DNA from: Escherichia coli
GTDB taxonomy: Bacteria; Pseudomonadota; Gammaproteobacteria; Enterobacterales; Enterobacteriaceae
DNA: 64,000 nucleotides
Reading direction: 5' to 3' (one strand)
Assembly (NCBI RefSeq): GCF_048403405.1
Contig: NZ_CP183129.1
Part shown: one piece after another, positions 41,501-44,500 of the stretch
How positions within the stretch are numbered: position 1 is the first letter of the stretch
Layout of the letters: the number at the start of each line of letters is the position of its first letter
Made by a program: the position numbers

Positions 41501-44500
41501 CGGCGCGGGGTGCGGATCAAACTGATCATTCAGGGCGAACCGGATATGCCGATTGTCAGAGTCGGTGCACGCTTGCTGTATAACTATCTGGTTAAAGGCG
41601 GCGTTCAGGTGTTTGAGTACCGCCGCCGTCCGCTACATGGCAAAGTGGCATTGATGGACGATCACTGGGCGACGGTAGGGTCCAGTAATCTCGATCCGCT
41701 CAGTTTGTCACTGAATCTCGAAGCAAATGTCATCATCCACGATCGTCATTTTAACCAGACGCTGCGTGATAATCTGAACGGCATTATTGCCGCAGACTGC
41801 CAGCAGGTGGATGAAACCATGCTGCCGAAACGCACCTGGTGGAATCTGACCAAAAGCGTGCTGGCCTTCCACTTTTTACGCCACTTCCCGGCGCTGGTCG
41901 GCTGGCTTCCGGCACACACACCACGTCTGGCGCAGGTTGACCCGCCCGCTCAGCCGACAATGGAAACGCAGGATCGGGTAGAAACTGAAAACACGGGGGT
42001 AAAACCCTGATGAGTAAATCACACCCGCGCTGGCGCTTAGCAAAGAAGATCCTCACCTGGCTGTTTTTTATCGCGGTGATTGTGTTGCTGGTGGTCTACG
42101 CCAAAAAGGTGGACTGGGAAGAGGTCTGGAAGGTCATCCGCGACTACAATCGCGTTGCGTTGCTCAGTGCGGTCGGGCTGGTGGTCGTCAGTTATCTGAT
42201 TTACGGCTGCTATGATCTGCTCGCCCGCTTTTACTGCGGTCACAAACTGGCGAAGCGCCAGGTGATGCTGGTGTCGTTTATCTGCTACGCCTTCAACCTG
42301 ACGCTCAGTACCTGGGTCGGCGGCATTGGTATGCGCTATCGTTTGTACTCCCGGCTAGGGTTACCGGGCAGCACTATTACGCGGATTTTCTCGCTCAGTA
42401 TTACCACCAACTGGCTGGGCTATATTTTACTGGCAGGGATTATCTTTACCGCAGGCGTGGTGGAGTTGCCGGATCACTGGTATGTCGATCAAACCACGCT
42501 GCGCATTCTCGGCATTGGCTTACTGATGATTATCGCGGTTTATTTGTGGTTTTGCGCTTTCACGAAGCACCGCCATATGACCATCAAAGGACAAAAACTG
42601 GTGCTGCCTTCATGGAAATTTGCCCTCGCCCAGATGCTGATTTCCAGCGTTAACTGGATGGTAATGGGAGCGATTATCTGGCTGTTACTCGGTCAAAGCG
42701 TAAACTATTTCTTTGTACTGGGCGTGTTGCTGGTTAGTAGCATTGCTGGCGTCATCGTGCATATTCCGGCGGGAATTGGTGTGCTGGAAGCGGTGTTTAT
42801 CGCGCTACTGGCTGGGGAGCATACATCTAAAGGCACAATTATCGCCGCCCTACTCGCTTATCGTGTGCTGTATTACTTTATCCCACTGCTGCTGGCGCTG
42901 ATCTGTTACCTGCTACTGGAAAGCCAGGCGAAGAAGCTACGAGCGAAAAATGAAGCGGCGATGTGAAGTTTAGTTAAGTTCTTTAGTATGTGCATTTACG
43001 ACTAATGAAAAAAACGCGTATGCCTTTGCCAGACAAGCGTTATAGCTATCGCGGCAAGTATCCCAAAGAAGCCGATAAAATAGTAATAGAGTGTTAATGC
43101 ACCTGTAAAAGCGCAACGAACCGGACTCCACAACTCTTCGCTATGGCATTTTCCTGCCAGTTCAAGGAGCTTATTTCGTCCATGCGAGATAATGCCTGAC
43201 CATAACACAATCATTAAGCAACTTATTACCCAAACGGGTCGTTCACTCATTAATGCGGCATCCATGATGATCACCAGGGCCAGCTCTGCGGTTGCCACCA
43301 TACCCAAAGCGGTAATGAGCCATATACCGTTTAATATCCTGGCCTCGTGCTGAAAATCTAATTTATTGCTGTTTTGCGAGTATGATTCCATTCTTTTAGT
43401 TGTCCTTAGAAAAAACATTAATATTTACCATCAATAAATTTAAAGCCACGCATACAAAATACTTTTGTATTTATGGATACGGAAAACACTTCCACTCGGC
43501 CATAAGGCGTATTTTATACCTGGTACTTGTTAAGTGTCGTTTTTAGTAAGAAAAAAATCCCGACACATGGCCGGGATATTGATGGTGAAAAAGAATTAAC
43601 GGCGGTTGCCGAAGATCCGCAGCAACATCAGGAACAGGTTGATGAAGTCCAGATACAAGGTTAACGCGCCAAGAATGGAATATTTGCGCAGGTTCGACGT
43701 GTCGCGGGTATCAATCTGCTCACCCATATTTTTCAATTTCTGAGTGTCATACGCCGTCAATCCGACAAAGACAATCACGCCGATGTAGGTAACTGCCCAC
43801 ATCAATGCTTCGCTTTTCAGCCAGAAGTTGACCAGCGATGCCAGCACAATGCCGATTAACGCCATAAACAGCATATTGCCAAAGCCGCTTAGATCGCGCT
43901 TCGTGGTGTAACCGTACAGGCTCATTGCGCCAAACATCCCGGCAGTAACGACGAAAGTACTGGCGATAGAAGCAGCGGTATAGACAATGAAAATACTGGA
44001 AAGCGTAAGACCCGTCAGCGCCGAATAAAGCATAAAGAGCATCGTCGTTACACCTGCGCTCAGCTTTTGAATCATCGCTGATAACACAATAACCAATGCT
44101 AATTGCGCGATGATCAGACCGATTAAAAAGACACGGTTAGTGAACAACAGCTCCATCACGGCCGCGGAATTAGCCGCATACCAGGCAACAAATGCGGTCA
44201 GCAACAAGCCAACGGTCATCCAGCCATAGACCTGCGCCATATAAGTTTGCAAGCCAGCCCGGGGTTGTACAATTGAATCAGAACGTGGGAATCTGTCCAT
44301 GACGATCTCCTGAAGATATAAGGAATATCTTAAGGATACTGCAAAATGATGAGGCTGTGCATCGACGCAGCGTAAACGCATGTACTGAGCGGTGAAATTG
44401 CCGGACGCAGCGGTGCCTTATCCGGCTAACAAAAAACTACCAGCGTTTTGCCGCCTGCTGATCGCTCTCCCGAGCTTCGACCCAGCGGTCGCCTTCCGGC

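What the first reader, a model, noticed from the sequence alone, without database searches (positions are those of the whole stretch)
42967..43595. Gene at the ybhM position is much shorter than expected
Only 630 bp separate ybhN and ybhL, and the sole ORF there encodes a 129-138 aa membrane protein. Its sequence resembles the N-terminal half of a BI-1-type protein and it terminates right after an A7 run (43008-43014). I recall YbhM as about 237 aa, which could not fit here, suggesting a deletion of the 3' half. Alternate frames after the A-run extend by no more than 11 codons, so a simple homopolymer slip does not restore a full-length protein. My recollection of the reference length is uncertain.
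Basis: partly seen in the sequence, partly recalled or inferred. Interest (0 to 1): 0.35.

Follow-up and report, generated by a model that had tools for sequence, protein, structure and literature searches.

The report
Common in-frame deletion allele of ybhM
The short gene between ybhN and ybhL is E. coli ybhM with 108 internal codons removed in frame; about one in ten sequenced E. coli strains carry this allele, so it is real but ordinary gene decay, not loss of the gene's 3' half.

Summary
ybhN ends at 42966 and ybhL at 43596, and the only sizeable ORF between them is 43002-43391 (-), 129 aa, or 138 aa from an upstream ATG. K-12-type ybhM is 714 bp / 237 aa.

The gene lost codons 36-143 (324 bp, in frame). 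It kept the first 35 codons, the last 94 codons and the native stop after ...RFFH, which is the A7/T7 run. The junction lies in an 11-bp imperfect direct repeat, CAGGG[C/T]TGGCC.

Pfam matches only the C-terminal part of the Bax1-I domain (positions 127-205 of 207), at 30.4 bits against a cut-off of 34.1. Three of about seven hydrophobic helices remain.

The allele is not an artefact. 574 of 5426 complete E. coli genomes (10.6%) carry a contiguous 390-nt version. RefSeq annotates it as a hypothetical or "Bax inhibitor 1 family" protein. ST405 and ST963 strains are among the carriers.

The locus varies in other ways: 750 genomes have a third BI-1 paralogue, and others have IS insertions or larger deletions.

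The published K-12 ybhM promoter is intact here. The product is most likely a non-functional 3-helix remnant.

Two questions stay open: whether the deletion arose once or several times, and whether the ORF is under selection. Interest is low.

The parts
43002..43391 (-). Short ybhM allele: 390 nt, 129 codons plus the TAG stop at 43002-43004; ATG at 43389-43391.
   Evidence: ORF list. Annotated identically in RefSeq as WP_000446922.1. Aligns to K-12 YbhM residues 1-35 and 144-237.
43278..43288 (-). Deletion junction inside the 11-bp microhomology CAGAGCTGGCC (CDS positions 104-114). In this allele type the crossover falls within TGGCC (43278-43282).
   Evidence: DNA alignment with long alleles. 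Long alleles carry CAGGGCTGGCC at position 104 and CAGGGTTGGCC 324 bp downstream.
43008..43014 (.). A7 run (T7 on the coding strand). It encodes Phe-Phe of the native C-terminus ...RFFH* and is not a truncation point.
   Evidence: Same sequence and same stop in K-12 ybhM. One long allele (strain A30) has a T6 slip here that changes the tail to ...RFFISRKCTY*.
43403..43407 (-). Shine-Dalgarno-like AAGGA, 11 nt upstream of the annotated ATG. This supports the 129-aa start over the 138-aa start.
   Evidence: Read from the sequence. No such motif precedes the ATG at 43416-43418. K-12 and RefSeq annotations use the MESYS... start.
43511..43540 (-). ybhM promoter, intact: -35 ACGACA (43540-43535), 16-nt spacer, -10 TATAAA (43518-43513).
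   Evidence: The consensus scan finds ACGACA at 43540. The same ACGACA-16-TATAAA site is listed as a constitutive sigma-70 promoter with H-NS in the K-12 ybhL-ybhM spacer (PMC3946193).
43557..43577 (-). Terminator-like hairpin plus T-run just after ybhL. It implies that ybhM is transcribed from its own promoter.
   Evidence: Terminator scan.
43596..44300 (-). ybhL, the conserved full-length BI-1/YccA-family paralogue next door (234 aa).
   Evidence: Pfam Bax1-I, 212 bits, positions 1-207 of 207. Matches BsYetJ structures at E = 1e-8. RefSeq annotation.
42010..42966 (+). ybhN, convergent with ybhM and separated from its stop by 35 bp.
   Evidence: ORF list. RefSeq annotation of the identical locus.

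Best explanation
This is a natural allele of E. coli ybhM, an accessory, AT-rich paralogue of the BI-1/YccA family that lies next to ybhL. A 324-bp segment (codons 36-143) was lost in frame between two copies of a short imperfect direct repeat, CAGGG[C/T]TGGCC. The likely mechanism is replication slippage or another microhomology-mediated deletion (inferred). The first part of helix 1 is fused to the last part of helix 5. This leaves a 129-aa protein with three hydrophobic helices: a hybrid 1/5 helix, helix 6 and helix 7. Four helices' worth of sequence was removed, so membrane orientation should be preserved (inferred). The promoter, ribosome-binding site, start and stop are untouched, so the remnant is probably still expressed. 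It cannot form the seven-helix BI-1 fold, so I consider it most likely a loss-of-function remnant. It would persist because the gene is dispensable and an in-frame deletion leaves no broken reading frame. The allele is old or mobile enough to be found in 10.6% of complete E. coli genomes, in several sequence variants shuffled by homologous recombination.
For: Shown by tool results:
- Internal in-frame deletion with native ends.
- Direct repeat at the junction.
- Pfam match limited to profile positions 127-205 of 207 and below the gathering cut-off, against 3-205 at 75 bits for K-12 YbhM.
- Three hydrophobic segments in the short protein.
- 574 of 5426 genomes carry a contiguous short CDS, and all 60 sampled rows span exactly 390 nt. 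The deleted segment is present in 4809 genomes.
- Promoter retained.

Evidence that the gene is dispensable:
- IS5 in ybhM of HB101/RR1.
- IS1B insertions in ybhM, and IS200C or IS2 insertions in the ybhM-ybhL spacer.
- An IS91-associated deletion that removes ybhN and ybhM.
- One frameshifted short allele.
- A T6 slip in a long allele.
- About 43 genomes have neither the long nor the short form (5426 - 4809 - 574).

Even full-length YbhM lacks both aspartates that align with the BsYetJ/YbhL YD and LYLD motifs. Low G+C (42-44% against 51% for the window; spacer 33%) fits an accessory, H-NS-bound gene.
Against: - The ORF is intact in nearly every carrier sampled, although the short alleles differ from one another by up to 5%.
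- Pairwise pN/pS among short alleles is 0.18, no higher than among long alleles at 0.30.
- Substitutions seen only in short alleles are 12 nonsynonymous to 10 synonymous. That is fewer nonsynonymous than unbiased mutation predicts (p = 0.011 without a transition-bias correction).
- These points would fit some retained function. They are confounded by recombination with long alleles and by the small sample (10 long alleles, 11 short haplotypes).
- No expression or phenotype data were examined.
Confidence: 0.62

Rival explanations
1. The 129-aa product is a maintained, functional small membrane protein. It would be a three-helix derivative of YbhM, for example a modulator of YbhL, YccA or FtsH, or a protein with a new role, and the ORF is kept by purifying selection.
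For: - Intact 390-nt ORF in all 60 sampled carriers of 574, and in 13 of the 14 short alleles fetched from other genomes. The exception is the frameshifted L008.
- Promoter, Shine-Dalgarno motif, start and stop are conserved.
- pN/pS of 0.18 among short alleles.
- The deletion removes four helices' worth of sequence, so topology is preserved (inference).
- 7 of the 12 nonsynonymous changes private to short alleles fall in codons 28-44, the new hybrid helix. They include G36E and N44D in this window's allele, which could reflect adaptation of that helix.
Against: - The Pfam match is sub-threshold and covers only the last ~80 profile positions.
- Four of seven helices of the BI-1 fold are gone.
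- The parent gene is itself repeatedly disrupted in other strains.
- The selection statistics are confounded by polymorphisms shared with long alleles and by the small sample.
- A 390-nt in-frame remnant can stay open by chance for a long time.
- The cluster of changes in the hybrid helix fits relaxed constraint equally well.
Confidence: 0.2
2. The same 324-bp deletion arose independently several times at a slippage-prone repeat (a mutational hotspot, possibly favoured by selection), rather than once with later spread by recombination.
For: - There are three junction types.
  - Type 1 (this window): GCAG(A/G)GCTGGCCCTGG.
  - Type 2 (Ecol_316, 13P477T, 19KM1831): GCAGGACTGGCCCTGG, with a 5' flank like NT1N25-type long alleles.
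  - Type 3 (strain 64 and about 5 others): GCAGGGTTGGCCCTGGTAATC. Here the discriminating base comes from the 3' copy, and both sides of the junction look like K-12/O157/UTAK-3 long alleles.
- Strain 64 is identical to long-allele strain no107 across most of the ~16 kb flanking ybhM, including ~4.5 kb immediately on the ybhN side, so it sits in a different background from this window.
- The repeat is one of only 4-5 repeated 11-mers with at most one mismatch in the gene.
Against: - Strain 64's CDS positions 131-390 are identical to the window type apart from one private change.
- Position 252C is shared by all three junction types but found in none of 10 sampled long alleles.
- No exact long-allele parent exists among 4782 long-allele genomes; the best is 99.0%.
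- NRZ14408 is clearly a recombinant between short types, which shows that recombination does reshuffle these alleles.
- Divergence between strain 64 and no107 is concentrated in ~1.5 kb around ybhM, consistent with an imported tract.
Confidence: 0.45
3. The short gene is an assembly or sequencing artefact (collapsed repeat or mis-join) in this particular genome.
For: None found. The deletion is flanked by only an 11-bp repeat.
Against: The identical sequence occurs in independent complete genomes from many countries and hosts: 13 are at least 99% identical over 1 kb, 467 share the junction 81-mer and 574 have the full short CDS.
Confidence: 0.01

Closest known systems
E. coli K-12 ybhM (b0787; WP_000446911.1, 237 aa, BI-1/YccA family inner-membrane protein of unknown function)
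   Same: Same chromosomal slot between ybhN and ybhL. Same promoter, start and stop. Residues 1-35 and 144-237 are 95% identical.
   Different: Lacks codons 36-143, which cover the end of helix 1, helices 2-4 and the start of helix 5. Pfam coverage drops from positions 3-205 to 127-205, and the score from 75 to 30 bits.
YbhL (adjacent paralogue) and Bacillus subtilis YetJ (solved BI-1/TMBIM structures 4PGR and related entries)
   Same: Same Pfam family (Bax1-I). The retained C-terminal helices align with helices 5-7 of YbhL.
   Different: YbhM is only about 23% identical to YbhL. It finds no solved structure by sequence. It has Gly and Tyr where YbhL and YetJ have the two aspartates of the ...YD... 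and ...LYLD... motifs. These are the di-aspartyl pH sensor of BsYetJ (my recollection of Chang et al. 2014). The short allele has 3 helices, not 7.
Other structural variants of the same locus in E. coli
   Same: All affect the accessory BI-1 genes next to ybhL and leave ybhL intact.
   Different: The other variants are a third paralogue (WP_001299026.1, 234 aa) between ybhL and ybhM in 750 genomes, IS1, IS5, IS200C or IS2 insertions, and an IS91-linked deletion of ybhN-ybhM. This window has a clean in-frame internal deletion.

Membership tests
Ortholog of E. coli ybhM | Synteny: lies between ybhN and ybhL, convergent with ybhN | tested here: met
Ortholog of E. coli ybhM | High nucleotide identity with reference ybhM over the shared parts, with the same start and stop | tested here: met
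   residues 1-35 and 144-237 align at 95% identity.
Ortholog of E. coli ybhM | End-to-end alignment with the 237-aa reference | tested here: not met
   Codons 36-143 are absent.
BI-1 / TMBIM (Pfam PF01027 Bax1-I) | Domain match at or above Pfam's gathering score, over the whole domain | tested here: not met
   30.4 bits against a cut-off of 34.1, covering profile positions 127-205 of 207 only. K-12 YbhM scores 75.1 bits over positions 3-205.
BI-1 / TMBIM (Pfam PF01027 Bax1-I) | Seven transmembrane helices | tested here: not met
   A Kyte-Doolittle scan finds three hydrophobic segments, at residues 22-49, 51-71 and 97-123. This is a crude predictor, not a topology model.
BI-1 / TMBIM (Pfam PF01027 Bax1-I) | Conserved aspartate pair in helices 6 and 7 (BsYetJ di-aspartyl sensor; the YD and LYLD motifs) | tested here: not met
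   In the alignment with YbhL, YbhM has ...SHG... and ...LYYYF... at these positions, in both the long and the short form. The motifs are conserved between YbhL and YetJ.
Pseudogene (decayed gene) | Frameshift or premature stop | tested here: not met
   The reading frame is open from the native ATG to the native stop.
Pseudogene (decayed gene) | Loss of a part needed for the family fold | tested here: met
   108 of 237 codons are missing, spanning helices 2-4 and parts of helices 1 and 5.
Pseudogene (decayed gene) | Relaxed selection (dN/dS near 1) | tested here: inconclusive
   pN/pS is 0.18 among short alleles. Private changes are 12 N to 10 S. Both are confounded by recombination and the small sample.
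Microhomology / slipped-strand deletion | Short direct repeat at both ends of the lost segment, with one copy left at the junction | tested here: met
   CAGGGCTGGCC and CAGGGTTGGCC lie 324 bp apart in long alleles, and a single hybrid copy is present in short alleles.

The most novel reading that the evidence does not exclude
The same topology-preserving, in-frame 324-bp deletion has arisen more than once in E. coli and is retained under selection. In that case the 129-aa, three-helix fragment of a BI-1 paralogue would be a functional mini-membrane-protein, for instance a regulator of its full-length neighbour YbhL or of FtsH, as YccA is, and not debris.
Probability: 0.1. Interest if true: 0.45.

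Novelty: already known. Interest (0 to 1): 0.15.

Why it matters
It matters little beyond annotation. The allele shows that the unnamed 'hypothetical protein' (WP_000446922.1 and relatives) between ybhN and ybhL in about 10% of E. coli genomes is an internally deleted ybhM. It also shows that the ybhL-ybhM locus is a small hotspot of structural variation among BI-1 paralogues, with forms carrying three genes, two genes, a shortened gene, IS disruptions or a deletion. Anyone studying bacterial BI-1/YccA-family proteins, or using ybhM as a pan-genome marker, should know that these forms exist. If the remnant proved functional, it would be a natural minimal fragment of the BI-1 fold to study.

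Tried and rejected
- **Homopolymer frameshift at the A7 run:** rejected. The run encodes the native C-terminus.
- **Loss of the 3' half:** rejected by alignment.
- **Assembly artefact:** rejected by population data.
- **Descent from the three-gene form by fusion of two paralogues:** rejected. The window's spacer and 5' end match the two-gene K-12-type arrangement, and paralogue X is not involved.
- **First junction census:** the 81-mer search at E <= 1e-20 undercounted carriers (467). The full-CDS search gave 574.
- **First count of the deleted segment:** megablast undercounted it (4156). blastn gave 4809.
- **Exact long-allele parent of the type-3 junction:** none found; the best match is 99.0%. 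Single versus multiple origin therefore stays open.
- **Sequence search of solved structures with YbhM, long or short:** nothing found. Only YbhL reaches YetJ.
- **Literature:** 11 papers contain 'ybhM' and none describes this allele. A search for 'ybhL' together with 'yccA' found nothing.
- **The repeat finder:** it did not list the junction repeat among its top families. A custom 11-mer scan did find it.
- **Not attempted:** structure prediction was judged unable to discriminate between the explanations.

Full report
**Observation**

The window carries the E. coli moa-ybhL-ybhM-ybhN-clsB region in reverse orientation relative to K-12. ybhN ends at 42966 and ybhL, on the minus strand, ends at 43596. 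The two genes are 629 bp apart.

The only sizeable ORF in between runs on the minus strand from 43418 or 43391 to 43002, giving 138 or 129 aa. RefSeq annotates the identical sequence from the inner ATG: 390 nt, WP_000446922.1, named 'hypothetical protein' or 'Bax inhibitor 1 family protein'. An AAGGA motif at 43403-43407 precedes that ATG.

K-12-type genomes have a 714-bp, 237-aa ybhM at the same place.

**What the lesion is**

DNA and protein alignments with K-12-type ybhM show one gap of 324 bp, covering codons 36-143. Residues 1-35 and 144-237 are retained at 95% identity, and the gene ends at the native stop.

It is not a truncation point. Incidentally, one long allele (strain A30) has a T6 slip there that changes the tail to ...RFFISRKCTY*.

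So the deletion is internal and in frame, not a loss of the 3' half. Pfam agrees:
- The short protein matches Bax1-I only over profile positions 127-205 of 207, at 30.4 bits against a cut-off of 34.1.
- K-12 YbhM matches positions 3-205 at 75 bits.
- YbhL matches positions 1-207 at 212 bits.

The retained part is thus the C-terminal helices plus a short N-terminal stub, not 'the N-terminal half'.

**Mechanism of the deletion**

Long alleles of the O157, UPEC536, A30 and CUVET types carry CAGGGCTGGCC at CDS position 104 and CAGGGTTGGCC exactly 324 bp downstream. Both copies encode -GLA-. The window has a single hybrid copy, CAGAGCTGGCC (43278-43288), followed by sequence from the 3' copy. In this allele type the crossover lies within TGGCC.

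This pair is one of only four or five 11-mers in the gene that are repeated with at most one mismatch. Replication slippage or another microhomology-mediated deletion is the natural inference. It was not tested.

**Population frequency**

The following counts are for 5426 complete E. coli genomes:

| Feature | Genomes |
|---|---|
| Junction 81-mer | 467 |
| Contiguous full-length match to the 390-nt short CDS | 574 (10.6%) |
| Deleted segment present | 4809 |
| Neither form (by subtraction) | about 43 |

All 60 sampled rows of the short-CDS search span exactly 390 nt. Of the 14 short alleles I fetched from other genomes, 13 are intact. The exception is a 1-nt insertion in strain HCP5S3_I2, which PGAP flags as frameshifted.

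Carriers include a strain listed among ST405 genomes (WCHEC4533; PMC9037040) and ST963 strain MS14384 (PMC10024524). An assembly artefact is excluded.

**The locus is generally unstable**

- 750 genomes carry a third BI-1-family gene (WP_001299026.1, 234 aa) between ybhL and ybhM.
- Other genomes have IS1B within ybhM, or IS200C or IS2 in the ybhM-ybhL spacer.
- One genome has an IS91-associated deletion that removes ybhN and ybhM.
- HB101/RR1 has ybhM::IS5 (PMC5379014).
- ybhM is AT-rich: 42-44% G+C against 51% for the window, with a spacer at 33%. The K-12 spacer is listed as H-NS-associated (PMC3946193).
- The middle of ybhM differs by up to 8.5% between K-12 and B2 strains.

This is the profile of a dispensable accessory gene.

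**Likely consequence**

The K-12 promoter ACGACA-16-TATAAA is intact at 43540-43513. A terminator-like hairpin follows ybhL at 43577-43557. The remnant is therefore probably still transcribed from its own promoter.

A hydropathy scan finds three hydrophobic segments:
- a hybrid of the start of helix 1 and the end of helix 5 (residues 22-49);
- helix 6 (residues 51-71);
- helix 7 (residues 97-123).

Four helices' worth of sequence was removed, so orientation in the membrane should be preserved (inference). The seven-helix BI-1 fold, however, cannot form.

Even full-length YbhM has Gly and Tyr at the positions where YbhL and B. subtilis YetJ have the aspartates of the YD and LYLD motifs. From my recollection of the BsYetJ structure paper, these form that protein's pH sensor. 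YbhM is therefore a divergent family member to begin with.

My best reading, at about 0.6, is a loss-of-function remnant that stays open because the deletion was in frame.

**Is the remnant under selection?**

- Pairwise pN/pS is 0.18 among short alleles and 0.30 among long alleles over the same codons.
- Changes seen only in short alleles are 12 nonsynonymous to 10 synonymous. Random mutation would give about 78% nonsynonymous or stop changes (p = 0.011 without a transition-bias correction).
- 7 of the 12 nonsynonymous changes fall in codons 28-44, the new hybrid helix. They include L31M, G36E and N44D in this window's allele.

This could mean residual constraint with local adaptation, or relaxed constraint on the hybrid helix. 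Many polymorphisms are shared with long alleles, recombination is evident, and only 10 long alleles were sampled. I call the test inconclusive.

**One origin or several?**

Three junction variants exist. Type 3, found in strain 64 and about five other genomes, carries the 3'-copy base at the discriminating position. On both sides of the junction it looks like K-12- or UTAK-3-type long alleles.

Strain 64 is identical to long-allele strain no107 across most of the ~16 kb compared, including ~4.5 kb immediately on the ybhN side. It differs at about 16 sites within about 1.5 kb around ybhM.

Against independent origin:
- Its CDS positions 131-390 equal the window type apart from one private change.
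- Position 252C is shared by all three junction types but by none of the sampled long alleles.
- No exact long-allele parent exists among 4782 long-allele genomes; the best match is 99.0%.
- NRZ14408 is a clear recombinant between short types.

I leave this at roughly even odds.

**Comparison with known things, and verdict**

The allele is a member of the ybhM orthologue group by synteny and identity. It fails end-to-end alignment and fails the BI-1 family's domain, helix-count and aspartate criteria.

It is already catalogued in RefSeq in hundreds of genomes under stable accessions. None of the 11 papers that contain 'ybhM' describes it.

It is a real but ordinary example of accessory-gene decay. 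Interest is low (0.15). The only route to higher interest is the roughly 10% chance that the three-helix fragment is a maintained, perhaps recurrently evolved, functional protein.

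Noticed in passing
L005:3486-4190 and L006:3486-4190 (between ybhL and ybhM; absent from the window): 750 of 5426 complete E. coli genomes carry a third tandem BI-1-family gene (WP_001299026.1, 234 aa; Pfam Bax1-I 47.6 bits). It sits in an 840-bp segment that replaces 125 bp of the K-12-type spacer.
   Followed up: partly
L018:484-1215 (strain A30 ybhM); equivalent to window 43008-43014: The T7/A7 run at the 3' end of ybhM is T6 in strain A30. This shifts the frame and replaces the final His with ISRKCTY. 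The homopolymer does slip in nature, but not in this window.
   Followed up: partly
L008:991-1482; L011 and L023 from ~1116; H3, H11, H33; L007:935-2332: Mobile-element activity around ybhM in other strains: IS2 and IS200C in the ybhM-ybhL spacer next to short alleles, IS1B in ybhM, and an IS91-family element associated with loss of the clsB 3' end, ybhN, ybhM and the ybhL 3' end.
   Followed up: no
window 43260-43310 (codons 28-44 of the short ORF): Nonsynonymous changes private to short alleles cluster in the hybrid helix around the junction: 7 of 12 fall in 17 of 129 codons. This window's allele has L31M, G36E and N44D, which places two acidic residues in a hydrophobic helix. Unexplained.
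   Followed up: partly
window ~42800-43980 compared with L024 and L027: Strain 64 and strain no107 are identical across most of the ~16 kb compared, including ~4.5 kb immediately on the ybhN side. They differ at about 16 sites in the ~1.5 kb around ybhM, which marks a short recombination tract or a local diversity hotspot.
   Followed up: partly
window 26070-26154 (-): ARAGORN calls an 85-nt tRNA-Gly(GCC) here. The position lies inside the dinG coding sequence, and Rfam's tRNA model does not reach its gathering score. This is almost certainly a false positive.
   Followed up: yes
window 47128-47272 (-): Molybdenum cofactor riboswitch (RF01055, 103 bits) upstream of moaA, as expected for this operon.
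   Followed up: no
window 43596-44381 (-): The mechanical ORF for ybhL extends to an upstream ATG (261 aa), whereas RefSeq annotates 705 nt / 234 aa starting at 44300. This is only a start-codon ambiguity.
   Followed up: no
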